This document shows, one piece after another, positions 34,056 to 46,482 of a stretch of DNA of 64,000 bases (positions within the stretch are counted from its first letter, which is position 1; the number at the start of each line of letters is the position of its first letter). The notes below the pieces were generated by a model. That model did not search any database and was not told where the DNA came from. It saw only the letters and a list, made by a program, of their open reading frames with translations. This DNA comes from Patescibacteria group bacterium (GTDB lineage: Bacteria > Patescibacteriota > Minisyncoccia > JAHISW01 > Tagabacteraceae). The position numbers and the translations under genes are program-made. Where the stretch lies: assembly GCA_018819015.1 (NCBI GenBank), contig JAHJQY010000016.1, positions 18,064 through 82,063 on the forward strand. Reading direction: 5' to 3'.

Positions 34056-34512
34056 AAAAATAGCAATAATTAAAAAATTAATGGAGGAATTGTTGGAAAA
34101 ACTGACGGTTTGCGCGGAGGTTGAAGTGCTGGAGACGACCGATGGACCAAAATTTATTGTAAAAACTCCAGAAGGTAGCTTGCTTATCGGGGAGAATGGC
34201 AAGAATTTAATTTCTTTTAATCATATTGTTAAAAAAATGGCCGGAAAAATTATCGGAAAAAACGAAGAAGAAAATTTTTCTTTTTCGTTGGACATCAATG
34301 ATTATCAGGCGAAGAAAATAGAAGATTTAAAAAATTTGGCCAGGGTGAATGCTCAGCGCGTCAGGTATTTTAAAAAGGAAATTGTTTTAAGGCCGATGAG
34401 TTCTTTTGAGAGAAGAATTGTCCACATGACTTTGTCGGATTGTCCGGATATTATAACCGATAGCATTGGCGACGAACCGGAAAGAAAAGTTACTATAAAA
34501 CCCTATCTCTAA
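34045..34512 (+). CDS. Jag/KhpB RNA-binding protein (KH + R3H)
   Basis: 'FSLDINDYQAKKIEDLKNLA' and an R3H motif 'ERRIVHMTL'. Confidence 0.8.
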   Translation: MEDKKIAIIKKLMEELLEKLTVCAEVEVLETTDGPKFIVKTPEGSLLIGENGKNLISFNHIVKKMAGKIIGKNEEENFSFSLDINDYQAKKIEDLKNLARVNAQRVRYFKKEIVLRPMSSFERRIVHMTLSDCPDIITDSIGDEPERKVTIKPYL

Positions 34513-35714
34513 TTTAATTGCAAGCTCCACAAGGCGCCGTCTTTTTTGTTTTGGAATAAAAGATAATTTTCACTATCGTCCGTGAAAAGATTTATGGCGT
34601 CAAAACCATCTTTGTCCATTATTATTTTTGTGGAGCCGTTGGCTAAATCTATAGCCCAAAGAGAATCTTCAAAAGAAATCAGTCCTTTATACCAGTCATT
34701 GGGATAATTGCCGCCGGGTATGGATTTTGGCGCGGCGCAGTATATCAGATTTTCTTTTGTTGGGCTGAAAAAACATTTTTCCGGAAGCACTTTATAAGAA
34801 AAATCGGAAAAAGTTTTTTCTTTGGCGTCGTATATTTTGGCGGAAAAGCCATTTTTTTCACTTTGGCTGTAAATTACTTTATTACCAACAGAAGAATAAA
34901 GCGCCGTCAGTCCTTTGATACCGCCGATTATTTTTGAAAAATCTCCCGTTTGGGGATTTAAACTATAAAAATATCCTTCAATTGAGGCAGACGGTTTGGT
35001 TTGAATGGTTATAATGTCTTTTTGTGGCCATTTGATTAAAAAGTTTTCAAAAGGTGAGGAAAATATTTCTTTTTGGTTTTTGTTTTCCAGAGAAGCCGTT
35101 ACGCCCGTCACCCCGTTATTTTTAAGCAGGTAAAATATTTTTTCTTGACTAGGCGACATAACTATGGCCGATAAGTTTAGGGGGAGGAAGCTCCCTTCTA
35201 GTTGGTTTGTCGTGGTAGTGGTGGATGTTGTTGGGGATGAGACTAAAAAAGTTCTTAAACTGTCAGTTTCCGGGTCAATATATTTTAAAGCGGCTTTTGA
35301 TAAATCATTGGACCAGACTGTTTCAAACACTTTTGGGATAGTGGTAATGCTGATTTGTTTTTTTTCTCCGCCACGCGGGCTTATTTCGTAAAGATGTCCG
35401 GTTGATTGCTCAAAATAATTTATCTTGCCGGTATTTTTATTGAAAACGGCGCCGGAAACGGGTATTTGTGTCAGCTGCGTTAATTTCCCCGCCGGCTGCG
35501 CTGATTCTGTTTCAGAGCTTTTGGGCCGGATACTTGCTATGGGTTGTTCAAACAGGCTTAAATCACCTCTTTCTTTGCTGGAGGGAAAAAGATAAGAGAA
35601 AAATCCTTGTTCTCCCGGCTGGGCGCTTTGCGAAGGCCAGAGAAAATATATAGCCAAACCAATAATGACTATCCCTATAATTATTCCTGTTATGATTAAT
35701 ATTTTTTTGTTCAT
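34509..35714 (-). CDS. Secreted hypothetical protein, beta-propeller-like, at the distal end of the T4SS-like operon
   Basis: N-terminal TM or signal peptide, then repeated beta-strand-rich segments. Confidence 0.4.
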   Translation of the reverse strand: MNKKILIITGIIIGIVIIGLAIYFLWPSQSAQPGEQGFFSYLFPSSKERGDLSLFEQPIASIRPKSSETESAQPAGKLTQLTQIPVSGAVFNKNTGKINYFEQSTGHLYEISPRGGEKKQISITTIPKVFETVWSNDLSKAALKYIDPETDSLRTFLVSSPTTSTTTTTNQLEGSFLPLNLSAIVMSPSQEKIFYLLKNNGVTGVTASLENKNQKEIFSSPFENFLIKWPQKDIITIQTKPSASIEGYFYSLNPQTGDFSKIIGGIKGLTALYSSVGNKVIYSQSEKNGFSAKIYDAKEKTFSDFSYKVLPEKCFFSPTKENLIYCAAPKSIPGGNYPNDWYKGLISFEDSLWAIDLANGSTKIIMDKDGFDAINLFTDDSENYLLFQNKKDGALWSLQLN

Positions 35715-35730
35715 GAAATAAAACCGATGT

Positions 35731-36147
35731 TTAAAGCGGTGTAATGCCTAAGTTTAAATTGACTAAGTCTGGATTGATGGTGGAAAGAATCAGCCACGCG
35801 CCAATAATTACCAATAATCCTAAGATGGCTTGCCAGATTCTGTTCTTTGCTTTTTCTACGGTGCTGGTATTGCCGCCGGCCATAATATATTCAAATCCGC
35901 CGACGGTTATGACAACGACAGCCAATATTCCCCCCAGTACAATGGCAAATTTTAAGACATCGTTGGCGTAAGAGGAAAAAGGTTTGACAGTTGGTGGGTT
36001 TGATGTTTGGTTGTGGGCTGTGAATGTTTCGTTTGGGACTAGTATTTCAGCCAGACTTTTGTTTGTGGCAGCAAAACTAACAATGAACAATATTCCGATT
36101 GCCGCGAAAACAAAAATTATCTTATTAAATTTTATATTTTTCTTCAT
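35731..36147 (-). CDS. TrbC/VirB2-like pilin
   Basis: 138 aa: a signal/TM segment, a ~40-aa hydrophilic stretch, then two hydrophobic helices ('FAIVLGGILAVVVITVGG' and 'AILGLLVIIGAWLIL') separated by a short loop. This is the VirB2/TrbC architecture. It is operonic with the VirB4-like ATPase. Confidence 0.5.
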   Translation of the reverse strand: MKKNIKFNKIIFVFAAIGILFIVSFAATNKSLAEILVPNETFTAHNQTSNPPTVKPFSSYANDVLKFAIVLGGILAVVVITVGGFEYIMAGGNTSTVEKAKNRIWQAILGLLVIIGAWLILSTINPDLVNLNLGITPL

Positions 36148-37121
36148 TAAAAATTGATATTTAAACTTTCCTCGGCAAATTGGAAAAAATTAGCCAAATT
36201 TTTAATTTGCAGATTTATGGCGCCGGTTCCAGTTATGCCGGTTGGCGTTTCAAAATTCATAACTTTCGGATTGTTTTCTTCCGGCGCTATGTTTTGGCCA
36301 TTCATTTTCCAATTGTAATCAAGTTTTTCCGGGTTGGAGAAAAAGAATGGCTCGGCTATAATGTTAATTGTTTTAACTAGCATTTGGAATTCGCCCTTAA
36401 TGGCTTTGTTGAACAAGGTTCCCAAGCTGGGGTTGTCTTCGTAGAAAATTATTTCCGGCTTTGCTTGGTTGGCCGGCAGTATTATGGTTTTTTCAAAAAC
36501 AGCGCTTTTGTCCGCGTTAGAAACCTTAACAGTTACGGCGTAATTATTATAATTTTCTATTTTGAACGAAAAAGAATTCTTTTTATAGCCCGAAGAATTC
36601 AATATTCCTTCATAATTTAAAGACCATTCATAAAATAAATTTGACGGCAGGATTCTTTTTCCGCCGGAAAACAGGTGGGGGATGGCGACTGCTTTTACCC
36701 GCGAGTCTATAACGGGGAGCGGCAGGCCATTATACCAATAAGGAGCGCAAGTCATGGCTTCGCACAAAAGATCTACATCGTTTCCTTGCAGTATTAAAGT
36801 TTTTGTTAATTGAATATCATTTTCGGTCGTAACAGAAACGGAAATTGTTTTGCTTTTTCCGGCATCGGGCGCCACGGTTTCTATAGAGGTTTTACCGATG
36901 CCTTTTTCGGTGGTTTTGTCTCCGATGCGCCAGATGATATTGCTTCGGCTGGCGTCAAAGCCGGAGCTGTATATTTGCGCTTTGATAGGCGAACCCGGCG
37001 TTGGATTTTGAGGAACAATACTTATGGAAACATTTTCCCCGAATGCCCGGGCATTTTGGAAAAAGGCCAATAAAACAAGAATTACGCAACCAAATAAAAA
37101 TTTTAAAATTTCTTTTCTCAT
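36147..37121 (-). CDS. Secreted hypothetical protein (T4SS-like operon)
   Basis: 324 aa with an N-terminal signal peptide. Confidence 0.4.
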   Translation of the reverse strand: MRKEILKFLFGCVILVLLAFFQNARAFGENVSISIVPQNPTPGSPIKAQIYSSGFDASRSNIIWRIGDKTTEKGIGKTSIETVAPDAGKSKTISVSVTTENDIQLTKTLILQGNDVDLLCEAMTCAPYWYNGLPLPVIDSRVKAVAIPHLFSGGKRILPSNLFYEWSLNYEGILNSSGYKKNSFSFKIENYNNYAVTVKVSNADKSAVFEKTIILPANQAKPEIIFYEDNPSLGTLFNKAIKGEFQMLVKTINIIAEPFFFSNPEKLDYNWKMNGQNIAPEENNPKVMNFETPTGITGTGAINLQIKNLANFFQFAEESLNINF

Positions 37122-37129
37122 TTTTTAAA

Positions 37130-37498
37130 TTATAACATTTCTTTGGTAAAGATTCTTACCAGTGTGGCGCCAAAACAGACAGGCAGAACTCCCACAAAGA
37201 AATCAATTATACTTCCAATTCCTATCGTTAATACTGTTTTTTCTATATTTTTTCCACCAAAATTAAGATAAAGCACTCCGCCCCAAATAAAGTTAAATAA
37301 AGGCGCGCTAAATGGAATCATGGCCAGTAGGTCAAATAACAGCGCTCCTGATAAAATCAGCCAATGTTCAGATAATTTTTTTCCGACAGACATTGCTGCC
37401 ACGGTTTTTTCAATGGGATTTTCTTCGCCTTCTTCTTTTTTTCTGTCTTCTTGTAATTGCATCAGCCGTTCGTTTTCAATTGTTGTCGCTTGGTCCAT
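37130..37498 (-). CDS. Small membrane protein (T4SS-like operon)
   Basis: 122 aa with about three TM helices. Its start overlaps the end of the VirB4 ATPase ORF. Confidence 0.4.
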   Translation of the reverse strand: MDQATTIENERLMQLQEDRKKEEGEENPIEKTVAAMSVGKKLSEHWLILSGALLFDLLAMIPFSAPLFNFIWGGVLYLNFGGKNIEKTVLTIGIGSIIDFFVGVLPVCFGATLVRIFTKEML

Positions 37499-39359
37499 CG
37501 GAATCTAATTTTTGTTTAGCCCTTTTAATGGCTATTAGTTGGGCCGGGTCAGAGGTGATAATTTGGTCTTCGGTATAAGAGGCGATTATTTTTATGGCCA
37601 CATGTTTTAAGCCGGCAAAAAACATTCCTTCTCCCACATCGGATTCCAGCAGCAAGAATTTTTCCTCGTCTGTCAGTTTGAATATATTTTGCAGAACATC
37701 AATGGCGGCTGGGGATTGTTTTAGGAGTATTTGTATCGCTGAGTTTGTTATGATGGGGCTTCCGTAGGGCGATGACAAAAAATCTCCGACATCCTGGGTA
37801 ATTGTAGCCAGCCCTAGATAATATTTTCTGCACCTTTTGGCTATGTGCGTTAAGAACGACGCGCCGTCGGGCGATTTCATCATCCACCATGCTTCATCAA
37901 TTACCAGCAGCCGTTTTTTGAGCTCCCGTCTTACGGCATTCCAAACAAATTGGATGATAAGGTACATGGCCACCGGCCTTAATTCGTCCTCCATATCGCG
38001 CACGGAAAAGGTTATGAGTTTTTGGTCTATGGCCACATTTGTCGGCTGGTTTATGAATCCGGCCCAAGTGCCTTGAGTGTATTTTTTAAGTTTTGTAGCC
38101 ATAGTCTCGCCTCCTTCCAGGCTGGCTAAAACCAATTCCAGGTCGGAAAGCACCGGCGGCACTTTGTTTGAGAAATCGGAATCCGGCGTAATATCTCTGG
38201 CGGCGTAGGTTTCCGTTATGGCTCTGTCCAGCACCGAGTCTTCTTCCGGTGTCAGTCCGCCAAGCATTATTCTGAAAAGGCCTACCAGACTTATAATATG
38301 CGATCTTAAAATATCCGATGGCGCTTCGTCTTCTCTTGGCAGAGGCAAGTCAAAAGGGTTGATGTGGTGTTCCGAACTCAATGAGATATTAAAATAATCT
38401 CCGCCGACCGCTTGGGTCAAATATTTATATTCCATTTCCGGGTCAATAATAATAACACTGGTTCCGAACATCAGCGATCTCAGTATTTCAAGTTTTGTGG
38501 CGTAAGATTTTCCGGCGCCGGCCTTGGCAAATGTTACGGAGTTGTAATTTTCAAGAGAAAAGCGGTCAAACAAAACCAAGCTGTTGTTGTGCCTGTTGAT
38601 GCCGTAAAGAATGCCCTTGTTGGAGGTCAGGTCAAAAGAAACAAAAGGGAATAAACTTGAAAGGGGAGAAGAATTCATTTTGCAGTGCACTTCCAATTTG
38701 TCTGTTCCCAAAGGAAAAGATGTTTCAATGCCCTCTGTTTGCTGAAAGAGCGCCGGTTTGGCATAAATCAGTTTTGCTTCAAGCGCCGATCGAATTTCTT
38801 TTTCCAGTGAATTTAATTCTTCAAAATTGTCCGCATAAACCGTGATATATAAACCCAGATTGAAAAGCCGCTCCTGCGCTTGCTGTAATTTATCTCGCAA
38901 GTCTTCCAAGTCTTGATAAGCGGTATCCAGCATCGGGTCTCTGATGAGCCCTTTTTCTTCCCGTATGTGAATTTGCGATTGGACTTCGGCGACTTTTTTC
39001 TGCAGTTGTTTCAAAACACTGGAAGTGTCAACCGGATGGATGAAGATTGAAATATCAAAAACTTTATCCATGTTTATAATCGGGGAAAACCAATTGGCCG
39101 ACAAAAAGCGCGGATAGGAAAAAATGAAAATAGTTTTCGCTATTTTGTTGCCGATTCTTATATAATTGGGAGCAACCTGAAGCGCCGAAGGAGCTATGAT
39201 GTCTTTAAGTTCCAAAACCCCGGAGCTGTAAATTTCTCCCGGATGAACCGGCAGAATTTTTTCTTCTTCTTTGTTTTTGTTAAATAGTTGCATATTCTTG
39301 TTTTGGTATTGATGTTCTTTCTTCTTCCTCCGGGTTGTAGAGGCCGTAGAAAAGTTCAA
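37476..39359 (-). CDS. VirB4/TraC/TrbE-family type IV secretion ATPase, ATPase portion
   Basis: Walker A 'AKAGAGKSYA' and Walker B 'LLVIDEAWWMM'. The segment 'DIIAPSALQV...IGNKIAKTIFIFSYP' resembles the VirB4 family of Gram-positive conjugation systems. The likely start is 'MQLFNKNK' at 39293. Confidence 0.7.
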   Translation of the reverse strand: MNFSTASTTRRKKKEHQYQNKNMQLFNKNKEEEKILPVHPGEIYSSGVLELKDIIAPSALQVAPNYIRIGNKIAKTIFIFSYPRFLSANWFSPIINMDKVFDISIFIHPVDTSSVLKQLQKKVAEVQSQIHIREEKGLIRDPMLDTAYQDLEDLRDKLQQAQERLFNLGLYITVYADNFEELNSLEKEIRSALEAKLIYAKPALFQQTEGIETSFPLGTDKLEVHCKMNSSPLSSLFPFVSFDLTSNKGILYGINRHNNSLVLFDRFSLENYNSVTFAKAGAGKSYATKLEILRSLMFGTSVIIIDPEMEYKYLTQAVGGDYFNISLSSEHHINPFDLPLPREDEAPSDILRSHIISLVGLFRIMLGGLTPEEDSVLDRAITETYAARDITPDSDFSNKVPPVLSDLELVLASLEGGETMATKLKKYTQGTWAGFINQPTNVAIDQKLITFSVRDMEDELRPVAMYLIIQFVWNAVRRELKKRLLVIDEAWWMMKSPDGASFLTHIAKRCRKYYLGLATITQDVGDFLSSPYGSPIITNSAIQILLKQSPAAIDVLQNIFKLTDEEKFLLLESDVGEGMFFAGLKHVAIKIIASYTEDQIITSDPAQLIAIKRAKQKLDSDGPSDNN

Positions 39360-39945
39360 TTAATTCTTCTGTATTAAGAGGCACGGTTCTTATTCCCGCG
39401 CGCGCCAGTCCCTGCGTTACCGTGTCAGCGCGCTGCAATAGCTGGTTTTTTTCTTTTTCAAAATCATTTTGGCTTATGGCCGGCGTTTTTTTGCCGCTGC
39501 TTAATATTTTATCCAAAAAAGCGGAGAAAGGATTATTTTTTTTCTCAAAGATGGTTGAGGAGTAAGGGATCACAATATAAAATGTTTTGTTTACTATTTT
39601 AGTTGAGGCTACGAAGTCTCTGATAAAATCTATATATTCTTTGGTTTGGATTTTCAGCAGTTCGTCGGTTTGCTCCCGTTCTTTTTTTCTCAGCGCCTCA
39701 AGGTATGTTTCTATGTTTAGTCCTCTTGATTGGATGTAAAATTGCACATGAAAATCCAGAGAGTTTAAAAAGTTTTGGTATTGCGATATGGTTGCCTCCT
39801 GTTCGTCTGCCGATTTCAGGGCGAAGTTTAAGGAAGACGCCATTAAAATCATACGCATTGAGCCGTCTTTAAGTATAATCACGCCGTCTCTGATTTCTTT
39901 TATGGAAACAAATTCTTGTGATGGTGCGCTTTTTATATTTGCCAT
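39280..39945 (-). CDS. VirB4 N-terminal domain encoded as a separate ORF (split or frameshifted VirB4)
   Basis: 'VSIKEIRDGVIILKDGSMRMILMASSLNFALKSADEQE' matches the N-terminal region of VirB4/TraE-type ATPases. The reading frame differs by +1 from the downstream ATPase ORF, with a 14-nt overlap. Confidence 0.5.
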   Translation of the reverse strand: MANIKSAPSQEFVSIKEIRDGVIILKDGSMRMILMASSLNFALKSADEQEATISQYQNFLNSLDFHVQFYIQSRGLNIETYLEALRKKEREQTDELLKIQTKEYIDFIRDFVASTKIVNKTFYIVIPYSSTIFEKKNNPFSAFLDKILSSGKKTPAISQNDFEKEKNQLLQRADTVTQGLARAGIRTVPLNTEELIELFYGLYNPEEEERTSIPKQEYATI

Positions 39946-39953
39946 ATTTATAT

Positions 39954-40367
39954 TTAATTTTTTTCTATTTCCTGTTTAATGTCTAAGCTCCATGCCAGGT
40001 CTCTAAGCTTGTTTTTGGTCAGGGCGGGTAATGGTGTTGGCGGGGTTTCTTTTTCTGACAAAATGCGCTGTATTTTTTGCGGTTCGGGTTCTCTTTTTTT
40101 CCAGGTATAAATTTTATTTTTCATCAAATAATTAAATCCATTTTCTGCGACATTGATGAGTGGTTTGTTGTGAATTTTGTAAAAAGCCAGCGCCACCGCC
40201 AGCGCCCCTACCAGCATTCCTAGTATAATAAAAAGAAAGAAGGGGAGGGAGATGTAAAGCAGGAAGATGGCGGCGCCTCCGCCAGCCAAATAAAGAAACT
40301 GGCTTAAGGTCAGCGGCCCGAAAATTTTGTCTTCAACTTCAATAAATTGTGGTACTTGAAATTTCAT
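39954..40367 (-). CDS. PrgI/VirB3-like 2-TM protein
   Basis: 'QVPQFIEVEDKIFGPLTLSQFLYLAGGG' followed by two TM helices, resembling the PrgI family. Lies immediately upstream of VirB4. Confidence 0.45.
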   Translation of the reverse strand: MKFQVPQFIEVEDKIFGPLTLSQFLYLAGGGAAIFLLYISLPFFLFIILGMLVGALAVALAFYKIHNKPLINVAENGFNYLMKNKIYTWKKREPEPQKIQRILSEKETPPTPLPALTKNKLRDLAWSLDIKQEIEKN

Positions 40368-40372
40368 ATTGG

Positions 40373-40903
40373 CTAACTTAGCGGTTCTCGATAAGGATCA
40401 ATGTCTTTAGTATAGCTTGTAATTTCCGGTTTGGCGCGGAAAGTTTTGCTTCTTTGCTCAAAAATGTCTTTTTTATTTTTTTCCGCGATTGGTTCGTTGT
40501 TGGAAAAAGTTTTCAGGGGATTTATGACTGGCGGCATTTGCTGTTCCGGTTGCTCTTTTTCTTTTTCTTCTTTCTCGGTTTCTCCACTATGAATTTTTCT
40601 CAATGATTCCCTAATTTTGGAAAATATTTTTTCGTTTATTTCATGGGCCACTTTTCTGGCCAATTCTTTTTGGAGGTCCATTCGGTTGGCCAAATTGGAG
40701 ATGAATTCGGCTGGATGAGTGATGCCCAACATTAGCAGTCCGGTCTCGTCCGCCATGATGCCCAATTTTTCCGTGGTCAGATTATTTTCTTTGGCGATAC
40801 TTTGCAGAATTTCAGCCGTGTTCACGCCGAAATACGCTTCTTTCACATCCGGCGGAAGTTTTTGATAAAGTTCGTTTAATTTTTCTGATGTTAAATTTGC
40901 CAT
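40373..40903 (-). CDS. Hypothetical cytoplasmic protein (T4SS-like operon)
   Basis: 176 aa, hydrophilic, with a charged C-terminus. Confidence 0.4.
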   Translation of the reverse strand: MANLTSEKLNELYQKLPPDVKEAYFGVNTAEILQSIAKENNLTTEKLGIMADETGLLMLGITHPAEFISNLANRMDLQKELARKVAHEINEKIFSKIRESLRKIHSGETEKEEKEKEQPEQQMPPVINPLKTFSNNEPIAEKNKKDIFEQRSKTFRAKPEITSYTKDIDPYREPLS

Positions 40904-40909
40904 GAATTT

Positions 40910-42721
40910 TTATTTTCGTTTTGTTATTTTTTCCCATTCTTTTTCGGCATGTTCTCTTGTTCCTTCTTCTCCTCCCCGAGTTTTTTTTATATTTTGAGCG
41001 GCCGGGCCAATCGTCCAAGCCATAGCCGCTTTGTTGTTGGCCGCCTTAAGGTTTTCAGTCAGTTGATTAAAATCGTCAAATATTTTATCGGCATTTTTTC
41101 CGCCTTTTTCCGCAATCTCATTAAGCTCTTTCGGGCTTATCTTTTGATAGAGACTGGTTTTTTCTTCCGGAGTCAGTTTTTCCATTCTGTTTATGTAATC
41201 TTTTACTTCATATCCTCTATATTCTTTGCCGGTTTTCTCTTTTTCTTCTACTGAAAGAGTGTTCACTAAATTGTCATAAGTTGATCGGAAGGCAGGATTT
41301 TTCTCCAGCAGTTCAACTCGTTCTCTGGCAGACATTTTCTTAAACATTTCTTTTTGCGCTTGTTTGTCGGCTAGCGCTCCCTTGCCCAAACTGGTCAAAT
41401 AGGTGGCTCTTTCCGCCGCCGGTAGATTCATTCCTCTTTGAACATAGGTTTCTATTTGTTCTTTTCTGCCGCCAACTCCGGCCAATTGTTTCGCCTTGTC
41501 CATTGTCCATCCGCCCAAGAGAGGGCTAGCCGCGACAAACCTTTCCATTTTTGGGGAGCCGGCAATACCTTCTCCGGCTCTGGCAATAGTTCGTCTGGCG
41601 GCGAATCGTGGAATGGCCCCGGCATAACCCAGCATTTTATTTTTGGCTCCCGTGGCAAAAGATATGGCGCTGGTCGCTCCCGCCCCGCCCATTTTTTTCG
41701 CCACCGTTAAACAGCCGAGCATGAGTATTATAAGCGTAACAAATTGGATGGCCAGCGCGGCGGTATTAGAGTCCGGCTGTAATATGGCGGTGGCGTAGCT
41801 GGCATCGGTTGTTCCTAAAAGAGTTTGATAAGACCCTTCACTGATAATTTTGGCCACCAGATAAAAAAGGAAAAGAAAAGCCGGCGCGAAAAGCGCTTGG
41901 CTGAAAAGAGTGTCCCACCATTGGCTGGCGTAAGATTTTGTTTTTGGCAGAACCATAGCGATAAAAGCCAAAGGAGCTAGCAGTATTAAAAATTGCAGAG
42001 CTATGGACCGGACGAGAAATAGCAACCCGCCGGCAAAAAGCACAAAAGAAGTTATTAGTATCATGGCGCAGCCGAAAACGGAAATTATAATTATCTGCTG
42101 GTAGGTGGCCGTTGGCTGGCCCGCAACAACAAAACTGTCACCTTTTGGCTCAAAAATGGTTTGTATTTTTAACCCTTCTGCGAAAATTTCTGAAATGTTA
42201 CTTTTTCCGTTGACAGTCATACTTTGGTAAAATTCATTGGCAAGGATGTTTGTTGCGTTAATTACCGTTGTTGTTATTAGCATACTGAAATTTACCAAGA
42301 GCGCTACAATGACAACTGTTCTTAAAAGTTCTTTCATTCCATAACCGCTGATTTGCAGAATGGTGGCAATGCCGATATAGATTAGGATGAATATGAAAAA
42401 TAGGTTGGCCAAATCTCTGGTTATTGTCCAGCCGGTAGCCACTAGACCGCCGGTCTGGGTTAATTTGGCGTTGTTTATGGAGTATGTTATAGATGCGTCA
42501 AAAAGACCAGCCGCCACATACAAAACTTTAGAGCAGACTTCCATCATTACGTTTCCCAGATTACTTAGAAGTGATTTTACCATTCCGCCCGGGTTGGACA
42601 TAACATCGGCCGGGTTTTCCGCGCTATAATTATCTTCTCCATAACTCGTTTTTATTCCAATTGGCCCCAGGACTATCACCAGCGCTATAATTATTATTAA
42701 AATTTTTCTTTTATTGGACAT
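40910..42721 (-). CDS. VirB6/TrbL-like polytopic membrane protein with charged C-terminal tail
   Basis: 603 aa: a signal peptide, at least six TM helices, and a ~200-aa K/E-rich C-terminal tail. This matches the VirB6 architecture. Confidence 0.45.
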   Translation of the reverse strand: MSNKRKILIIIIALVIVLGPIGIKTSYGEDNYSAENPADVMSNPGGMVKSLLSNLGNVMMEVCSKVLYVAAGLFDASITYSINNAKLTQTGGLVATGWTITRDLANLFFIFILIYIGIATILQISGYGMKELLRTVVIVALLVNFSMLITTTVINATNILANEFYQSMTVNGKSNISEIFAEGLKIQTIFEPKGDSFVVAGQPTATYQQIIIISVFGCAMILITSFVLFAGGLLFLVRSIALQFLILLAPLAFIAMVLPKTKSYASQWWDTLFSQALFAPAFLFLFYLVAKIISEGSYQTLLGTTDASYATAILQPDSNTAALAIQFVTLIILMLGCLTVAKKMGGAGATSAISFATGAKNKMLGYAGAIPRFAARRTIARAGEGIAGSPKMERFVAASPLLGGWTMDKAKQLAGVGGRKEQIETYVQRGMNLPAAERATYLTSLGKGALADKQAQKEMFKKMSARERVELLEKNPAFRSTYDNLVNTLSVEEKEKTGKEYRGYEVKDYINRMEKLTPEEKTSLYQKISPKELNEIAEKGGKNADKIFDDFNQLTENLKAANNKAAMAWTIGPAAQNIKKTRGGEEGTREHAEKEWEKITKRK

Positions 42722-44639
42722 TGACCGTAATGGGTATTGAATTATAAAGTCCTTCGTCGTCCGTCACCCGCAAGTTGATTATTTTTGTTCCGCTGGTTGA
42801 ATATTGCACTTGTATTATTCCCGGTTTGGCATTTGGCGCGGCGCTGATTCCTTCAAAACCATTGCCTATCGGCGTTTCCGTTGTGTCTCTGCTTTGGCTT
42901 TCGTCAAAAGTTCCGTCTCGGTTCCAGTCGGCTATATACCAATCGTAAAGGCCGTCGTTGTCAAAATCCCATTCGTACATGGCGATTTTGGGTGTTTTGT
43001 CGTTGTCTTTGGAAAGAGAAGGGTCAAGAGTAAAAAATTGGTCTTGCATGGCCGAACTTGGGGCGGTTATTTTTGCCTCCGGCGTTATTAGGTCTAAAAT
43101 TTCAGGAAAGTCATAATTGGGAAAAGGAGGTATGACTCCGATTTCGTGGACAATTCCTTCCGGAGTTCCTTCCGTGCTTACTCCAAACCACTTGATTGGC
43201 AAAAATAAACTAGCCTCAATTTTTTTCATAAAGCGTTCAGAAGATGTGTTCGGAGCGGAGCCGTCGGTTGTGTAATAGATAGTCGCCGGAATATTTGAAA
43301 GTAGACTGATACTGCTGGGTCCGACAGCCACGGCGGCCGTGGACGGAGTTTTTTCAGTAGATAGAAAAGGCGGGAAAAGATTTATGGTATGCCATTTTTC
43401 TTTGTTTCCGCTCTGGTCTATGCCGAACCATTTTAAGGTGGCAGACGAAATTATCTCTATTGGTCCGGTGTATGGGATAGAGGATAGTCCGGGCTCTGTT
43501 CCATCAAGCGTGTAGTAAATAATAGCATCTTCATTGGCTGTGATTTTGATATGCCAGCCATCGGATGGAGAGGCGGTTGTGACCGGAGCTGAATCATCCA
43601 TAAGGCCGGAAGCGGATACTGCCGAAGTCGCCCCTGCGGAACTTGTATCAGACGCGGTTATGGCCATGACACCTTCTTGGACCAGTCGGTTTATCAGCGC
43701 GTCTGTAATGGCGACAACATAAGATTCCCATTCTTCGTTGCTTATCAGCCAATCAAGGTTTGTTTGGACTGATTTTGATGTGGCATCGGCAATTATTTTG
43801 CCAGGTGTTCTTGTTTGCCATTTTTCGCAAGTGCATTCAGGTGGTACCTCGTTCTCTTTGTATGAACCTGTTTGAAGAGATGTATTGTTAGTTCCTTCAA
43901 TACGGCAAGTCATTTGTTTGCAAACTTTATCATTTAAAAATCCAACACCGGATTCCGCTTCACTTTTAGCCGCCTCTTTGGCTTTTACTGCCGCGGCAAT
44001 TTGTTGATTTGAAGTTTTGATAAAAAGTCCGTACGGGTTGTTTTGTTCTTCGCTGGTTGCAATCCAGGCTTTCCAGCCGCCATTTTGGAAATTTCCCATA
44101 AAGTCGTCAAAATTCGCTCCTACTTCAGAAAGGGTGCACATTGCCGTGTTGGTGAATGTTTGGGGATTTCTTAGGCCTAGATTTATTCTTATTGCCCAGC
44201 CGGGCTGACAAAGCGCGGACATAACCTGGTCTCCGACTAATTGTTGAACTGCTTGACCGCCTGCTATTTCAGCCGTATCTCTTAAAAAACCTTTCCAGTC
44301 GGTGACAAATTTTGGCTTGCCCCCGCCCTGTATCCATTCTACGATTTGATTGACCATAGTATCTAAAAGCACTTTTCTGAATTTGGCCATAACTGCTTTC
44401 ATAAGACTGTTTTGTTTTATAAAGGCCCATTCAAATGCCTCGACGACATATTGTTGTCCGGCTATTGCGGCTTGTTTTACTTGGGTCGCTGCGTCTGATA
44501 ACCATTGGCCGATATCAACACTTAGGTCTGTCCTGATTGTTGGCCAGGCAGCGCGGCTTTTTTGAGGATAAAATAAACCTCCGACGCAGGACGCGCAGAT
44601 TGTAAAAATTAAAAATATAAACAAAATTTTATTCCGCAT
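42711..44639 (-). CDS. Secreted surface protein with chitobiase-C-like (CHB_HEX_C) repeats and a PKD domain
   Basis: Signal peptide. 'IIYYTLDGTEPGLSSIPYTGPIEI' and 'TIYYTTDGSAPNTSS' motifs. C-terminal 'YEWDFDNDGLYDW...ITVNVQ' (PKD WxFxDG motif). Confidence 0.5.
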   Translation of the reverse strand: MRNKILFIFLIFTICASCVGGLFYPQKSRAAWPTIRTDLSVDIGQWLSDAATQVKQAAIAGQQYVVEAFEWAFIKQNSLMKAVMAKFRKVLLDTMVNQIVEWIQGGGKPKFVTDWKGFLRDTAEIAGGQAVQQLVGDQVMSALCQPGWAIRINLGLRNPQTFTNTAMCTLSEVGANFDDFMGNFQNGGWKAWIATSEEQNNPYGLFIKTSNQQIAAAVKAKEAAKSEAESGVGFLNDKVCKQMTCRIEGTNNTSLQTGSYKENEVPPECTCEKWQTRTPGKIIADATSKSVQTNLDWLISNEEWESYVVAITDALINRLVQEGVMAITASDTSSAGATSAVSASGLMDDSAPVTTASPSDGWHIKITANEDAIIYYTLDGTEPGLSSIPYTGPIEIISSATLKWFGIDQSGNKEKWHTINLFPPFLSTEKTPSTAAVAVGPSSISLLSNIPATIYYTTDGSAPNTSSERFMKKIEASLFLPIKWFGVSTEGTPEGIVHEIGVIPPFPNYDFPEILDLITPEAKITAPSSAMQDQFFTLDPSLSKDNDKTPKIAMYEWDFDNDGLYDWYIADWNRDGTFDESQSRDTTETPIGNGFEGISAAPNAKPGIIQVQYSTSGTKIINLRVTDDEGLYNSIPITVNVQ

Positions 44640-45600
44640 ATGTCTGGGCTATTTTTAAAAAATTTTGTATTAATCCTGCCATTTCTTCTCTTATTTTTTG
44701 GTTTTCCTGAAGAGCCAAGACCGTTTTTAAGGGATCGCTGTTTACTTCTTTGACGCTTTCATAAACTTTTTTGGTCGCCATAAGCAATTCTGTTTCTCTT
44801 TTGTGGATTTGCAGAAAATCAGATGGTACGGCAATTTTTTTCATATTGGCAATGGCGATTTCAAAATAGTTTATAAATTCATCAACTTTTTTAAAATTTT
44901 CTGTTTCAATTGCCTCTGACAGAATTTCTTCTTCGCTCTTACCTTGGTAAGGGCTTTTCGGCATGGCTTTTTCTATTTCGCTGACGTATTTCTGCACGGC
45001 CGTGAAAGAATTATCACTACCGGTTTTTATTTCAGACAAAGCGATTTGCGGATTGAGGCCGGCAATAAAATTTAAAAGCGCTTGCCCGGTATTTTTATCA
45101 ACCATGCTTAATGGGTTTGAAAGGTCAACTTGTTCCAGTTGTGTCGGGTCTTGGATTTGTGAACTGATGATTTGGGCGAAGCTTTGTGTTAAGTTGACCG
45201 GTTGCTGTGATTTTTGATTGTCGGCTAAAAAATTATTTTCGTCTTTTTTACCGGTTTTCGGATTGGAGGTTGGGTCTGTTGGGCTGTATCCCAGTATTGT
45301 TTCTTCTTTGTCCGAGTATCCGTCTTTGTCGGTGTCTTTGTTGTTGGGGTCGGTTTTCCAGAGCGCTTCTTCCCAGTTTCTTAATCCGTCGTCGTCGTTG
45401 TCCAAGGTCGCGCTTTCAATCACATCAGGGGAGATGACTTGGTTGGCGATTTTTTCATAAATTGTTTTCGGTTCTTTGTTTTTAGCAAGCCAAAACCAGC
45501 CGGCTACAACAAAAAATGCCAGCAAAAGCAGGATTGCCAGAACAATCAAATATATTCTGTTTTTCACATTTAAATTATAACACTTTTTTCGCTTTTCCAC
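44629..45600 (-). CDS. Membrane-anchored protein with thrombospondin-type-3-like Ca-binding repeats
   Basis: N-terminal TM, then 'DNDDDGLRNWEE...DPNNKDTDKDGYSDKEE'. First gene of the T4SS-like operon. Confidence 0.45.
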   Translation of the reverse strand: MEKRKKCYNLNVKNRIYLIVLAILLLLAFFVVAGWFWLAKNKEPKTIYEKIANQVISPDVIESATLDNDDDGLRNWEEALWKTDPNNKDTDKDGYSDKEETILGYSPTDPTSNPKTGKKDENNFLADNQKSQQPVNLTQSFAQIISSQIQDPTQLEQVDLSNPLSMVDKNTGQALLNFIAGLNPQIALSEIKTGSDNSFTAVQKYVSEIEKAMPKSPYQGKSEEEILSEAIETENFKKVDEFINYFEIAIANMKKIAVPSDFLQIHKRETELLMATKKVYESVKEVNSDPLKTVLALQENQKIREEMAGLIQNFLKIAQTYAE

Positions 45601-45670
45601 CGCCCTTTTTCCGCCCCCATGTGGATAATCAATGTTCGAAGTTCAACTTCAATCATTGGCGTGCGGGGGA

Positions 45671-45698
45671 TTGACAAGTTACTATTTTTGTGTATAAT
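45671..45698 (+). promoter_or_regulatory. Sigma-70-like promoter (TTGACA-16-TATAAT)
   Basis: ttgaca at 45671-45676 and tataat at 45693-45698, preceded by TG-rich sequence. It lies upstream of the lipoprotein gene. Confidence 0.5.
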
Positions 45699-45790
45699 TA
45701 TAGTTAGAAAATAACTAGAGTTTTTTTGACAATATTAATAATTTTGATGGCCCTAATCCCACCTACGGTGGGACGGGCGAGGAGGTTTGA

Positions 45791-46391
45791 GATGATAAAA
45801 AAAATTTCGGAAAGTTTAATTAAAGATTTTATTTGGTTTTGTTTTCTTTTTTTGGCCCTGCTTTTTGCGCTTGTAATGAGTGGCTGCGCCACCGGGCCGC
45901 TGAACCAGAAGGAGATGTCGCCGGTTTTAAGTTCGCTGGACGGCAACCCGCGAGAGGGCCTGATTATTTTGGAAGGCGAGCCGGCCGCAAGCATTGAGTT
46001 TCGCGACCAAGCCGGCTGCTTGGTGGCTCCTCAATGGAACGAGGCCGGAGCCAGTCCGCTCGCGCCGACCTATAATGGCCAACGCCGGCCGCGGTTGTAT
46101 GCCTATTCCGCGCTGGAATTTGGCTCGTACACAGTTAAGATCCGGCCGTTTTACTACACTGCTAATCTTTTTTTAAAAAGGCAGTTGGTGGAGTTGCCGG
46201 TTCAAACTTCGTCGGTTTATATTGACCGGCGGACTGACGATTATGACGGCCAGTACACCGGCCGGCACTGGGGTTGGATTTTGCGGATAAACACCGGCAA
46301 TATTCCCCGGGGACATTTTTCCGGGCCAAAAATTAATATTTCGGGTACCGGATTGCCGGGGTTGGTATTGAATAGACTTTTCGGGAGGTAA
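45791..46391 (+). CDS. Lipoprotein with a GC-rich, codon-usage-atypical mature domain
   Basis: AGGAGG 8 nt upstream of the start. The signal peptide 'LFALVMSGC' ends in a lipobox. The mature region uses ccg/ctg/ggc/cgc codons, unlike the rest of the window. Confidence 0.5.
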
Positions 46392-46482
46392 TTTAAGAGG
46401 CGTTGAGTTTTGAAAAATAAACTTGACGCCTTTTATCATTTTGGGGGAATTTGGTATAATTTGGTATAATAAAGATAATAAT

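What the first reader, a model, noticed from the sequence alone, without database searches (positions are those of the whole stretch)
35731..45600. Minimal type-IV-secretion-like operon (VirB2/TrbC-like, PrgI/VirB3-like, VirB4, VirB6-like) with surface proteins and no coupling protein or relaxase nearby
Eleven to twelve co-oriented, overlapping genes on the minus strand. The readable components are:
- A TSP3-repeat anchored protein.
- A PKD/CHB_HEX_C surface protein.
- A 603-aa polytopic VirB6-like protein.
- A PrgI/VirB3-like 2-TM protein.
- A VirB4 ATPase.
- A VirB2/TrbC-like pilin.
- Further secreted and small membrane proteins.

No relaxase, VirD4-like coupling ATPase or integrase is seen within the window. 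The operon is embedded between core genes (jag and the pilus locus). This looks like a chromosomal, envelope-spanning machine suited to a cell without an outer membrane, not a conjugative element. Such systems in ultra-small episymbiotic bacteria are poorly characterised and could mediate host-cell interaction or DNA uptake.
Basis: partly seen in the sequence, partly recalled or inferred. Interest (0 to 1): 0.8.

Follow-up and report, generated by a model that had tools for sequence, protein, structure and literature searches.

The report
Known Patescibacteria type IV secretion operon
This is a real, tightly packed 11-gene type IV secretion operon beside the replication origin of an ultra-small (Patescibacteria) bacterium, but this kind of relaxase-less, pilin-bearing system was already described in 2023 and 2025, so this is another member of a known kind.

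Summary
Eleven co-oriented minus-strand genes (34509-45600) are separated by -23 to +16 nt. HMMs support a VirB2-like pilin (PF18895), PrgI/VirB3 (PF12666) and a VirB4 ATPase (NCBIfam CD1110 family, above its cut-off). The VirB6-like protein sits just below the Pfam TrbL cut-off, but its model matches R388 TrwI/VirB6 best.

- VirB4 is two genes: a 221-aa TrsD-like N-terminal domain plus a 605-aa ATPase. It is never fused in 78 related loci.
- The operon extends to 34509 and includes a TolB-like propeller protein.
- The 176-aa protein is cytoplasmic.

About 81 kb of the source contig holds no relaxase, VirD4 or integrase. Gene order, including yidC-rnpA-dnaA-dnaN, is conserved across 80 Paceibacteria-type species, so this is vertically inherited and not an ICE.

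All of this matches published work: Wang et al. 2023 (PMC10633639) and Quinonero-Coronel et al. 2025 (PMC12102498). The substrate remains unknown. The most likely function is a VirB4-driven VirB2-type pilus or conduit for host contact.

Small additions from this work:
- Conserved unassigned accessory proteins.
- A C-terminal DPYRE motif in the 176-aa family.
- A DnaA box in the operon leader.

The parts
44629..45600 (-). First gene of the operon: a 323-aa N-terminally anchored protein with two TSP3-type Ca-binding DxDxDG repeats and a helical C-terminal domain. Function unassigned.
   Evidence: ORF. Pfam TSP3_bac 2.7e-5, 24.3 bits, just below GA 25. Hydrophobic segment at residues 10-41. Orthologs sit at the same position in 20-21 of 80 loci.
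42711..44639 (-). A 642-aa secreted protein. It has a conserved Patescibacteria-specific N-terminal domain (about residues 75-330, with four conserved Cys) followed by variable CHB_HEX_C x2 and weak PKD decorations.
40910..42721 (-). VirB6/TrbL-like polytopic membrane protein (603 aa) with a long, variable hydrophilic C-terminal tail.
   Evidence: Pfam TrbL 1.5e-5, 25.4 bits against GA 25.9. TrbL hits in 6 of 36 orthologs, best 1.3e-7. Close homologs carry PF04610 or PF19590 and NCBI names 'type IV secretion system protein'. AF2 model has pLDDT 79.9 and pTM 0.72. Its best PDB matches are TrwI/VirB6 chains of R388 (E 4.5e-3, prob 1.0, TM 0.38-0.49). At least 5 hydrophobic segments.
40373..40903 (-). 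A 176-aa cytoplasmic protein with a conserved helical N-terminal domain, a disordered linker and a conserved C-terminal DPYRE(P) motif. Function unassigned.
   Evidence: No TM segment. No Pfam, NCBIfam or PDB match. BLAST orthologs in 53 loci. The C-terminal DPYRE motif occurs in 57 loci, always in the VirB6|PrgI slot.
39954..40367 (-). PrgI/VirB3-like 2-TM membrane protein (137 aa).
   Evidence: Pfam PrgI 6.6e-8, 33.4 bits, above GA 27. Orthologs in 78 of 80 loci.
39280..39945 (-). TrsD-like protein (221 aa). It is the N-terminal domain of VirB4 encoded as a separate polypeptide.
   Evidence: NCBIfam: positions 5-134 of the CD1110 VirB4 profile and 101-239 of VirB4_plasma, plus weak TrsD. hhalign of the ortholog profile to residues 23-199 of a 797-aa Clostridium VirB4 gives 92.4% probability, E 5.2e-7. 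Present in 79 of 80 loci and never fused to VirB4.
37476..39293 (-). VirB4 ATPase lacking its N-terminal domain (605 aa from ATG 39293). Walker A AGAGKS lies at 38505-38522 and Walker B LLVIDE at 37893-37910.
   Evidence: NF045971 conju_CD1110 at 359.6 bits, above cut-off 325, covering profile positions 179-733 of 752. PDB 4AG5 at 5.6e-47. Pfam P-loop_TraG 5e-23. 70-77% identity to the 80 best loci kept, out of 588 relatives found in species-representative genomes. Motif positions.
37130..37498 (-). Small membrane protein (122 aa, 2-3 hydrophobic segments). The slot is conserved but the sequence is not.
   Evidence: No family hit. Hydrophobic segments. A small multi-TM ORF occupies the VirB4|324-aa slot in 52 of 67 loci.
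36147..37121 (-). Secreted 324-aa beta-rich protein with probable tandem Ig-like domains. Function unassigned.
   Evidence: N-terminal hydrophobic segment. Orthologs in 73-76 of 80 loci. Only weak Ig-like hits: Hoc 3.6e-3 in PDB, and Ig_3, Big_2 or BiPBP_C in a few orthologs.
35731..36147 (-). VirB2-like T4SS pilin (138 aa) with a signal peptide and two hydrophobic helices. It is the only copy in the window.
   Evidence: Pfam T4SS_pilin PF18895 2.6e-10, above GA. NCBIfam Mbov_0395 pilin-like 1.8e-8, 34 bits against cut-off 40. 29 of 30 orthologs hit PF18895 and 6 of 30 hit TrbC/VirB2. No paralog in the window.
34509..35714 (-).
   Evidence: ORF. Orthologs directly after the pilin in 61-63 of 80 loci. 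Profile against PDB gives 12 TolB entries, best 1.6e-3. PD40, DPPIV_N or DUF5050 hits in a few orthologs.
45601..45791 (.). Divergent intergenic region upstream of the operon. It holds a perfect DnaA box (TTATCCACA, 45620-45628, operon strand) and a one-mismatch box (45689-45697).
   Evidence: Same-strand boxes occur within 100 nt upstream of the first gene in 6 of 21 related loci, 3 of them perfect. Density is 0.445 per kb against 0.024 per kb background. No function has been shown.

Best explanation
This is the chromosomal, vertically inherited 'Patescibacteria-clade' type IV secretion system, descended from the monoderm MPF_FATA conjugation machinery. The copy here is from a Paceibacteria/Parcubacteria-type genome and lies 1.8 kb from dnaA.

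Proposed working, with the status of each step:
1. Shown by homology: the 605-aa VirB4 ATPase has intact Walker A and B motifs. Its separately encoded N-terminal domain is the 221-aa TrsD-like protein. The locus also encodes the 2-TM PrgI/VirB3 protein and the polytopic VirB6-like protein. Inferred: these assemble into the membrane platform.
2. Inferred from Gram-negative T4SS biology: the Sec-exported VirB2-like pilin inserts in the membrane. VirB4 extracts it and it polymerises on the VirB6 platform into a pilus or conduit that crosses the thin wall.
3. Inferred from conservation and topology only: five accessory proteins provide the extracytoplasmic and cytoplasmic parts that VirB5, VirB8, VirB1 and adhesins provide elsewhere. 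They are the 323-aa TSP3 protein, the N-terminal domain of the 642-aa protein, the 324-aa Ig-like protein, the 401-aa TolB-like propeller and the cytoplasmic 176-aa DPYRE protein.
4. The machine is not a conjugation apparatus, because no relaxase, T4CP, integrase or oriT context is present. It most likely serves host-cell contact and contact-dependent exchange in an epibiotic lifestyle. The related Saccharibacteria system is essential for growth on the host. Substrate and direction of transport are unknown.

My estimates: identity as this known system about 0.9, pilus or conduit formation about 0.6, any particular substrate below 0.3.
For: - Component HMMs: VirB4 hits NF045971 above its cut-off, PrgI is above GA, and T4SS_pilin is above GA.
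- Split VirB4: the TrsD profile aligns to residues 23-199 of a full-length 797-aa CD1110-family VirB4, and the 605-aa protein aligns to about residues 196-757 of it.
- VirB6: borderline Pfam score, family hits in homologs, and a fold model whose best PDB matches are TrwI/VirB6.
- The closest plasmid VirB4s are from Firmicutes and Actinobacteria at 28-36% identity. The core order VirB6-PrgI-x-VirB4 is collinear with Clostridium pCDC3875.
- Vertical inheritance: the 11-gene order plus yidC/rnpA/dnaA/dnaN is conserved across 80 species-representative loci. VirB4 has 71% median identity, against 26-50% for the other cassette proteins. GC is 0.39-0.44, like the rest of the window.
- No relaxase, T4CP or integrase was found across about 81 kb, and there is no flanking tRNA.
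- Literature: PMC12102498 describes the same repertoire, the lack of relaxase and the location near dnaA. PMC10633639 reports that the T4SS genes and pilin array are essential in Southlakia while comEC is dispensable. PMC12857230 reviews both.
Against: - There is no experimental datum for this locus or for any Paceibacteria T4SS. Essentiality is known only for one Saccharibacteria species, whose locus differs (a six-pilin array, lysozyme, an NTF2-like protein).
- Pilus formation by a monoderm T4SS has not been observed.
- In many orthologs the pilin-domain protein carries a 100-300 aa C-terminal extension, in one case a Peptidase_M15_4 domain. That fits a membrane anchor as well as a polymerising pilin.
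- VirB6 is below the Pfam gathering score, and sequence similarity to TrwI is not significant (E 0.76).
- No VirB8-, VirB5- or VirB1-like protein could be identified.
- The rest of the genome could not be searched for a T4CP or relaxase.
Confidence: 0.85

Rival explanations
1. It is a macromolecule import machine: a T4SS run 'in reverse', like H. pylori ComB or the archaeal Ced system. It would take up host DNA, nucleotides or other macromolecules for a cell that cannot make them. This rivals the best explanation only on function. The identity of the parts is the same.
For: - No T4CP or relaxase is present, as in ComB.
- The authors of PMC12102498 favour import of DNA or other macromolecules.
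- Patescibacteria lack nucleotide biosynthesis (PMC10633639).
- VirB4 gives weak hits to CedB and CedD models.
Against: - The CedB and CedD hits are 37 and 22 bits against cut-offs of 700 and 600, which is generic P-loop similarity.
- ComB-type systems use ComEC for the inner-membrane step, yet comEC is dispensable for Southlakia growth while the T4SS is essential (PMC10633639; PMC12857230).
- No DNA-binding or nuclease component is in the operon.
Confidence: 0.2
2. It is an effector or toxin export system that delivers proteins into or onto the host bacterium. Comparable systems are the Xanthomonas bacteria-killing T4SS, the Streptococcus suis 89K system, and the T4CP-less Bordetella Ptl two-step secretion of Sec-exported cargo.
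For: - Wang et al. suggest that the Southlakia system 'may instead export proteins'.
- T4CP-less protein exporters exist, such as Ptl and Brucella VirB (PMC12102498 and PMC12857230).
- Several Sec-exported proteins are encoded in the operon.
Against: - No recognisable effector, toxin-immunity pair or chaperone is in the operon.
- The secreted proteins are conserved structural-looking modules (Ig-like, propeller, CHB_HEX_C), not variable cargo.
- No T4CP is present to recruit cytoplasmic substrates.
Confidence: 0.2
3. It is a decayed or domesticated integrated conjugative element (ICE), with its relaxase, T4CP and integrase lost or lying just outside the region.
For: - The VirB4 is of the conjugative CD1110 type.
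- The core order VirB6-PrgI-x-VirB4 matches Clostridium plasmids.
Against: - The same 11-gene order sits in the same chromosomal place (next to yidC-rnpA-dnaA-dnaN) across 80 species-level genomes. VirB4 is 70-77% identical among them.
- There is no integrase, tRNA target or repeat boundary, and no compositional island.
- No relaxase or T4CP was found in about 81 kb.
- All genes are intact and tightly coupled.
Confidence: 0.03

Closest known systems
Patescibacteria-clade T4SS (Quinonero-Coronel et al. 2025, PMC12102498), in its Paceibacteria arrangement near dnaA
   Same: - Same repertoire: VirB4, an adjacent TrsD, PrgI/VirB3, VirB6 (which matches TrbL/VirB6 rather than PrgH/CD1112) and a PF18895 VirB2-like pilin.
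- No relaxase or T4CP nearby.
- Location next to dnaA/dnaN/rnpA.
- No VirB8, VirB9 or VirB10.
   Different: Nothing essential differs. This copy has a single short pilin (138 aa) rather than an array.

The text of that paper that I read does not discuss the accessory genes conserved in this lineage. These are the N-terminal domain of the 642-aa protein, the 324-aa Ig-like protein, the 401-aa propeller protein and the 176-aa DPYRE protein.
Southlakia epibionticum ML1 T4SS, SEML1_0006-0019 (Wang et al. 2023, PMC10633639)
   Same: - Collinear core: VirB6 - x - PrgI - TrsD-like - VirB4 (612 aa).
- PF18895 pilins.
- No relaxase and no essential T4CP.
- Chromosomal position at the start of the genome numbering.
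   Different: - Southlakia has six divergently transcribed pilins, two very long VirB6-like proteins (998 and 1088 aa), an NTF2-like (VirB8-like) protein and a lysozyme.
- The window has one pilin, one VirB6, no NTF2-like protein and no hydrolase.
- The window has TSP3, CHB_HEX_C, Ig-like and propeller proteins instead.
MPF_FATA conjugative T4SS of Firmicutes, CD1110/CTn2 type, e.g. Clostridium botulinum pCDC3875 (locus L082)
   Same: - The VirB4 scores above the CD1110-family cut-off.
- Order VirB6 - PrgI - (one gene) - VirB4.
- Monoderm architecture without outer-membrane core proteins.
   Different: - pCDC3875 has a VirD4 (CD1115), a MOBP relaxase, a 957-aa SLT hydrolase and a single full-length 797-aa VirB4, and no annotated pilin.
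- Here VirB4 is split into 221 + 605 aa, a pilin is present, and VirD4, relaxase and hydrolase are absent.
- The VirB6 profile does not match the CD1112 VirB6 (hhalign probability 0.8%).
pGO1/pSK41-type staphylococcal Trs system (TrsC-TrsD-TrsE)
   Same: A separate TrsD protein with homology to the VirB4 N-terminus is encoded just upstream of the VirB4-type ATPase. This is from PMC12102498 and a weak NF041427 TrsD hit.
   Different: The Trs system is a conjugative plasmid system with a relaxase, a T4CP and the TrsG hydrolase, and without a VirB2-like pilin. The window's TrsD-like protein scores only 21 bits against the TrsD model, whose cut-off is 200.
Mycoplasma ICE T4SS (Mbov_0395 pilin-like protein, Mbov_0397 VirB4)
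   Same: - The pilin hits the Mbov_0395 model at E 1.8e-8.
- VirB4 and TrsD both hit the Mbov_0397 VirB4 model.
- Both are wall-poor or monoderm systems with a small pilin-like 2-TM protein near VirB4.
   Different: - All scores are below the equivalog cut-offs (34 against 40, and 263 against 590).
- Mycoplasma ICEs are mobile and self-transmissible.
- I did not examine their loci.
R388 / Agrobacterium VirB (MPF_T) pilus-assembly module
   Same: - VirB2, VirB3, VirB4 and VirB6 analogues are all present.
- The VirB6 model's best structural match is TrwI.
   Different: - No VirB5, VirB7-VirB11 or VirD4 is present.
- VirB4 similarity to TrwK is only E 3.7e-5.
- The envelope is monoderm.

Membership tests
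Patescibacteria-clade T4SS (PMC12102498) | VirB4 of MPF_FATA affinity that groups with Patescibacteria VirB4s | tested here: met
   NF045971 (CD1110 family) at 359.6 bits, above cut-off 325. PDB 4AG5 (Firmicute VirB4) at 5.6e-47. 588 relatives in species-representative genomes; the 80 best kept are all uncultured MAGs, most labelled as Patescibacteria lineages, at 70-77% identity, against 36% or less to any plasmid VirB4. No formal tree was built.
Patescibacteria-clade T4SS (PMC12102498) | TrsD homologue next to virB4 | tested here: met
   The 221-aa ORF overlaps the virB4 start by 14 nt. Hits come from the VirB4 N-terminal and TrsD models. hhalign gives 92.4% probability to residues 23-199 of a full-length VirB4. 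Present in 79 of 80 loci.
Patescibacteria-clade T4SS (PMC12102498) | PrgI/VirB3 homologue near virB4 | tested here: met
   PF12666 at 33.4 bits, above GA 27. Present in 78 of 80 loci.
Patescibacteria-clade T4SS (PMC12102498) | VirB6/TrbL homologue near virB4 | tested here: met
   PF04610 at 25.4 bits is 0.5 bit below GA. However, 6 of 36 orthologs hit it (best 1.3e-7), and close homologs carry precomputed PF04610 or PF19590. The AF2 model (pTM 0.72) has R388 TrwI/VirB6 as its top PDB matches. Sequence evidence alone would be inconclusive.
Patescibacteria-clade T4SS (PMC12102498) | VirB2-like pilin (PF18895 or PF04956) near virB4 | tested here: met
   PF18895 at 40.7 bits, above GA 26.6. 29 of 30 orthologs hit PF18895 and 6 of 30 hit TrbC.
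Patescibacteria-clade T4SS (PMC12102498) | No relaxase or T4CP in the cluster, and a chromosomal position near dnaA/dnaN/rnpA | tested here: met
   Neither was found in about 81 kb. The operon ends 1.8 kb from dnaA, with rpmH-rnpA-yidC-jag between them.
Patescibacteria-clade T4SS (PMC12102498) | Required for epibiotic growth | not testable with these tools
   This is known only from Tn-seq in Southlakia (PMC10633639).
Conjugative T4SS / ICE (MPF_FATA) | MOB relaxase associated with the T4SS | tested here: not met
   No relaxase family was found among the window ORFs scanned or the called genes of the flanking contig. The rest of the genome was not searched.
Conjugative T4SS / ICE (MPF_FATA) | VirD4/TcpA-type coupling protein | tested here: not met
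   None in about 81 kb (same calls). The genome-wide state is unknown.
Conjugative T4SS / ICE (MPF_FATA) | Integrase or att boundaries, with patchy mobile distribution | tested here: not met
   There is no integrase, no adjacent tRNA and no GC island. Synteny is fixed in 80 species.
Conjugative T4SS / ICE (MPF_FATA) | VirB1-like cell-wall hydrolase (SLT/CHAP) in the cluster | tested here: not met
   No hydrolase domain occurs in any of the 11 proteins. A LysM-Peptidase_M23 gene lies about 25 kb away on the contig. One ortholog of the pilin carries Peptidase_M15_4.
   The only HerA-related hit is DUF87 at 27 bits. VirB4 models score 120-360 bits.
DNA-import T4SS (archaeal Ced, H. pylori ComB) | CedB/CedD-type ATPase, or a ComB gene set including VirB7-VirB10 | tested here: not met
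   CedB scores 37 bits against cut-off 700, and CedD 22 bits against 600. No VirB7-VirB10-like protein is present.

The most novel reading that the evidence does not exclude
The Paceibacteria-type cassette may contain a fixed set of unrecognised structural subunits. These are the Cys-containing N-terminal domain of the 642-aa protein, the 324-aa Ig-like protein, the TolB-like propeller and the cytoplasmic 176-aa protein with its invariant C-terminal DPYRE motif. They could replace VirB5, VirB8, VirB1 and the T4CP in a monoderm pilus-forming T4SS.

The operon may also be wired to the replication initiator through a DnaA box in its leader. That would tie expression of the machine to the replication cycle, not just to gene dosage near oriC.
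Probability: 0.25. Interest if true: 0.6.

Novelty: already known. Interest (0 to 1): 0.3.

Why it matters
Patescibacteria are a large share of bacterial diversity, and most are thought to live on other cells. Their T4SS is one of the few machines shown to be essential for that lifestyle, in one Saccharibacteria species, and what it transports is still an open question.

This window adds a clean, complete Paceibacteria example:
- It confirms the published picture independently.
- It shows that TrsD and the shortened VirB4 together make one canonical VirB4.
- It lists lineage-conserved accessory proteins that are candidates for the missing extracellular and adaptor parts.

It does not change the picture, and it does not make the substrate question more testable than it already is.

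Tried and rejected
- VirB6 profile against the Clostridium CD1112 VirB6: hhalign probability 0.8%. This agrees with the published note that Patescibacteria VirB6 matches the MPF_T VirB6 profile rather than the PrgH type.
- VirB6 profiles against PDB by sequence: nothing significant. TrwI appears only at E 0.76.
- Pilin and TrsD profiles against PDB: no hits.
- 176-aa protein: no Pfam, NCBIfam or PDB match. A search for other proteins ending in DPYRE found only its own orthologs, so it is not a shared secretion tag within the sequence held.
- A VirB8-like (NTF2) candidate was sought among the anchored proteins. None was found. The 401-aa protein looks like a TolB-type propeller and the 324-aa protein looks Ig-like.
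- C-terminal extensions of orthologous pilins with GGTE..H..VDLR..HWH motifs: no Pfam match. Only L070 has a confirmed Peptidase_M15_4.
- Frameshift or pseudogene explanation for the split VirB4: rejected, because the split is present in all 78 loci.
- The consensus promoter and terminator scan showed no enrichment over shuffles.
- Rfam found only the four tRNAs.
- Not possible: pCF10 (AY855841) is not in the plasmid collection. The afdb50 library was unavailable. The supplement search for the source locus tag KKB69 found nothing. One contig-edge look-up failed.

Full report
**1. What is in the sequence**

The minus strand between 34509 and 45600 carries eleven ORFs in one direction. Spacing between them runs from -23 to +16 nt.

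An independent gene caller on the source record gives the same gene models. That record is ENA ERZ27247117, contig k141_333390, 96,570 bp.

The eleventh (34509-35714, 401 aa) follows the pilin gene after 16 nt and is conserved in that place, so it belongs to the unit.

The upstream boundary is a 190-nt divergent intergenic region (45601-45791). It faces a lipoprotein-like gene, a histidine kinase/response regulator pair and a type IV pilus locus with PilB and PilC.

The downstream boundary is convergent with jag. It is followed by yidC, rnpA, rpmH and then dnaA and dnaN. The locus therefore sits 1.8 kb from dnaA in a classical origin region. There the GC falls to 0.26-0.29, and four near-consensus DnaA boxes lie between dnaA and dnaN.

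**2. Component assignments**

*VirB4*
- The 605-aa protein (ATG at 39293) scores 359.6 bits on NCBIfam NF045971, 'VirB4-like conjugal transfer ATPase, CD1110 family'. This is above the curated cut-off of 325 and covers profile positions 179-733 of 752.
- It matches the solved Thermoanaerobacter VirB4 C-terminal domain (4AG5) at 5.6e-47, and R388 TrwK at 3.7e-5.
- Walker A (AGAGKS) and Walker B (LLVIDE) are intact.
- The only HerA-type signal is a 27-bit DUF87 hit.

*TrsD-like protein*
- The 221-aa ORF just upstream overlaps virB4 by 14 nt.
- It hits positions 5-134 of the same CD1110 profile, positions 101-239 of the Mycoplasma VirB4 model, and the TrsD model weakly.
- A profile of its orthologs aligns to residues 23-199 of a full-length 797-aa Clostridium VirB4, with hhalign probability 92.4% and E 5.2e-7.
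- The 605-aa protein aligns to about residues 196-757 of that same protein.
- The two genes together therefore make one canonical VirB4.
- This is not a frameshift. In 78-79 related loci the two are always separate ORFs of about 212 and 605 aa.
- PMC12102498 already lists TrsD as the most abundant T4SS component next to virB4 in Patescibacteria.

*PrgI/VirB3*
- The 137-aa 2-TM protein is above the Pfam gathering score for PrgI.

*Pilin*
- The 138-aa protein has a signal peptide and two hydrophobic helices.
- It is above the gathering score for PF18895 T4SS_pilin.
- It hits the Mycoplasma ICE pilin-like family Mbov_0395 at 1.8e-8, which is 34 bits against a cut-off of 40.
- 29 of 30 orthologs hit PF18895 and 6 of 30 hit TrbC/VirB2.

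*VirB6*
- The 603-aa polytopic protein is 0.5 bit under the TrbL gathering score.
- 6 of 36 orthologs hit TrbL, best 1.3e-7.
- Close homologs carry precomputed PF04610 or PF19590, and some are named 'type IV secretion system protein'.
- An AlphaFold model of residues 1-400, built from 64 sequences, reached pLDDT 79.9 and pTM 0.72.
- In a Foldseek search of 350,542 PDB chains, eight of the nine best matches are TrwI/VirB6 chains of the R388 stalk. The best E is 4.5e-3, with probability 1.0 and TM 0.38-0.49 on the target. Chain identity was confirmed.
- I count VirB6 as met on combined evidence, not on sequence alone.

*Surface proteins*
- The 642-aa protein has two CHB_HEX_C_1 domains (7e-27) and a weak PKD.
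- The 323-aa protein has two TSP3-type DxDxDG repeats, just under the gathering score.

**3. Context and inheritance**

The VirB4 was searched against one genome per species, and 588 relatives were found. The 80 best are all from uncultured MAGs. Most are labelled Parcubacteria or Paceibacterota lineages or generically Patescibacteria, some only 'bacterium' or 'uncultured bacterium', and they are 70-77% identical to the query.

In these loci the gene order is strongly conserved:
323 - 642 - VirB6 - 176 - PrgI - TrsD - VirB4 - (small membrane protein) - 324 - pilin - 401 | (jag) yidC rnpA | dnaA dnaN.

Orthologs found out of 80 loci, many of which are truncated by contig ends:

| Protein | Loci with an ortholog |
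|---|---|
| TrsD | 79 |
| PrgI | 78 |
| 324-aa protein | 73-76 |
| 401-aa protein | 61-63 |
| VirB6 | 59-60 |
| Pilin | 53-59 |
| 176-aa protein | 53 by BLAST; the DPYRE motif marks 57 loci |
| dnaA | 49-51 |

Further points on inheritance and context:
- VirB4 is far more conserved (median 71% identity) than the other cassette proteins, which range from 26% to 50%.
- GC in the operon (0.39-0.44) matches the rest of the window.
- No tRNA flanks it.
- No relaxase, VirD4/TcpA or integrase family occurs among the window ORFs I scanned. I scanned mainly ORFs of about 220 aa or more.
- None occurs in the precomputed Pfam hits for the called genes of the roughly 17 kb of contig beyond the window ends either.
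- The 'decayed ICE' reading is therefore very unlikely.
- The nearest plasmid-borne VirB4s are from Firmicutes and Actinobacteria at 28-36% identity.
- Clostridium botulinum pCDC3875 shows the collinear core VirD4 - x - VirB6 - PrgI - x - VirB4 - x - SLT hydrolase. The window has lost the VirD4, relaxase and hydrolase functions, has a split VirB4, and has gained a pilin and several exported proteins.

**4. The unassigned conserved genes**

*The 642-aa protein*
- Only the N-terminal domain of the 642-aa protein (about residues 75-330) is conserved across the family. Its motifs include WIQGGGKPKFVTDW, NGGW and QNN.YG, plus four conserved Cys. The CHB_HEX_C and PKD modules are lineage-specific decorations.
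- Its 181 detected homologs are unnamed, 'hypothetical', or named only after the C-terminal CHB_HEX_C domain, and none has a Pfam domain in this region.

*The other accessory proteins*
- The 401-aa protein is N-terminally anchored. Its profile gives 12 weak but consistent TolB hits, best 1.6e-3. A few orthologs hit PD40 or DPPIV_N. It is probably an extracytoplasmic beta-propeller.
- The 324-aa protein is secreted and beta-rich, with weak Ig-like signals.
- The 176-aa protein has no hydrophobic segment and no family match. It ends in a conserved DPYRE(P) motif eight residues from the C-terminus. The motif is found in 57 loci, and only in this slot.
- A small membrane protein of 2-3 hydrophobic segments occupies the VirB4|324 slot in 52 of 67 loci, without sequence conservation.
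- No NTF2-like (VirB8-like), VirB5-like or VirB1-like protein could be identified. This agrees with PMC12102498.

**5. How it most likely works**

Shown by homology: the locus encodes an intact VirB4 motor in two polypeptides, its VirB3-type membrane partner, a VirB6-type platform and a VirB2-type pilin. This is the subset that Gram-negative systems use for pilus assembly. The parts needed to recruit and process DNA are missing.

Inferred:
- VirB4 extracts membrane-inserted pilin and feeds it to a VirB6-based assembly site, building a filament or conduit through the thin wall.
- The conserved exported proteins form or decorate the extracellular part and bind the host surface.
- The cytoplasmic DPYRE protein may dock on the ATPase.

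From the literature:
- The Saccharibacteria version, including its pilins, TrsD, PrgI and VirB6, is essential for epibiotic growth.
- Its distant T4CP homologue and comEC are not essential (PMC10633639, PMC12102498, PMC12857230).

Import of host macromolecules and export of proteins both remain open. I rate each at about 0.2 as the main role. I rate pilus or conduit formation for host contact at about 0.6 as the core activity.

One caution applies. In many orthologs the pilin-domain protein has a 100-300 aa C-terminal extension, one of them a Peptidase_M15_4 domain. This raises the possibility that the PF18895 domain is sometimes a membrane anchor rather than a polymerising pilin.

**6. Comparison with what is known, and novelty**

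The sources are PMC12102498, which covers 2,425 clade VirB4s in 2,407 assemblies, a synteny figure for Paceibacteria and the proximity to dnaA, and PMC10633639 for one cultured species.

I therefore rate the kind as already known, and this locus as a further, typical member.

- The explicit complementarity of TrsD and the shortened VirB4.
- Fold-level support for VirB6.
- The list of lineage-conserved accessory proteins, including the DPYRE motif.
- The pilin-hydrolase fusions in relatives.
- The pilin's similarity to the Mycoplasma ICE pilin-like family. This hints that a VirB2-like protein is not foreign to MPF_FATA systems.
- A DnaA box in the operon leader.

On the DnaA box: the box is a perfect TTATCCACA at 45620-45628. 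Same-strand boxes lie within 100 nt upstream in 6 of 21 related loci, three of them perfect. Perfect-box density is 0.445 per kb upstream against 0.024 per kb in the background. The loci are related to one another and the numbers are small, so this is a lead and not a result.

**7. Verdict**

- Observation: confirmed.
- Interpretation: supported, apart from its claim of novelty.
- Interest: low to moderate (0.3).

The system class is biologically exciting and its substrate is unknown. However, a specialist would recognise this locus at once, and it opens no new test.

Noticed in passing
window 45620-45628 and 45689-45697 (minus strand), and upstream of the first operon gene in L023, L014, L046, L001, L080 and L063: A perfect DnaA box (TTATCCACA) lies about 20 nt upstream of the start of the first T4SS-operon gene, with a one-mismatch box 70 nt further up. 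Same-strand boxes occur within 100 nt upstream in 6 of 21 related loci, 3 of them perfect. Perfect-box density is 0.445 per kb against 0.024 per kb background. This could mean DnaA-linked regulation, or it could be chance.
   Followed up: partly
L070:12781-14148, L071:13287-14159, L025:12286-13128, L029:11545-12723, L059:12865-13908 (orthologs of window 35731-36147): In many related loci the VirB2-like pilin-domain protein is 200-470 aa long, with a variable C-terminal extension. L070 carries a Peptidase_M15_4 domain (2.8e-18). Several others share a Cys-rich domain with GGTE..H..VDLR..HWH motifs and no Pfam match. The window's pilin (138 aa) has no extension.
   Followed up: partly
window 40373-40903 (-), and the same slot in 57 related loci: The cytoplasmic 176-aa protein family ends in a conserved DPYRE(P) motif eight residues from the C-terminus. 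The motif occurs in no other ORF of the window or of the 80 loci.
   Followed up: partly
window 30044-34512: This is a classical origin region: dnaN and dnaA (minus strand) face rpmH (about 32842-32976), rnpA, yidC and jag (plus strand). GC falls to 0.26-0.29, and four one-mismatch DnaA boxes lie at 31194-31345 between dnaA and dnaN. The cumulative GC skew has its minimum near 28-30 kb.
   Followed up: partly
window 7410-9040, 22362-24026 and 47832-54669: Type IV pilus genes lie on both sides of the T4SS: PilM (7952-9040), a second PilB-like ATPase (22362-24026), PilB (47832-49592) and PilC (50124-51335). These are followed by a CarboxypepD_reg protein and unassigned ORFs. A histidine kinase and response regulator (46423-47848) sit between the T4SS and the PilB locus.
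   Followed up: no
window 45792-46391 (+): A lipoprotein-like ORF (MIKKISES..., lipobox LVMSGC) is transcribed divergently from the T4SS operon. It has no homolog in any of the 80 related loci and no Pfam match.
   Followed up: no
window 55403-57552 and 59610-63908: Two sets of anaerobic energy-metabolism genes are present. One is 2-oxoacid:ferredoxin oxidoreductase subunits (POR_N, TPP_enzyme_C). The other is a cytoplasmic NiFe-hydrogenase-like cluster with a large subunit, an Oxidored_q6 small subunit and FAD/NAD-binding subunits. This is unusual metabolic content for a reduced genome, but it is unrelated to the finding.
   Followed up: no
L084:4549-5553 (source contig, about 5 kb beyond window position 64000): A LysM + Peptidase_M23 cell-wall hydrolase is encoded about 25 kb from the T4SS. 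PMC12102498 notes that VirB1-like candidates in Patescibacteria often carry these domains and are often not next to virB4.
   Followed up: no
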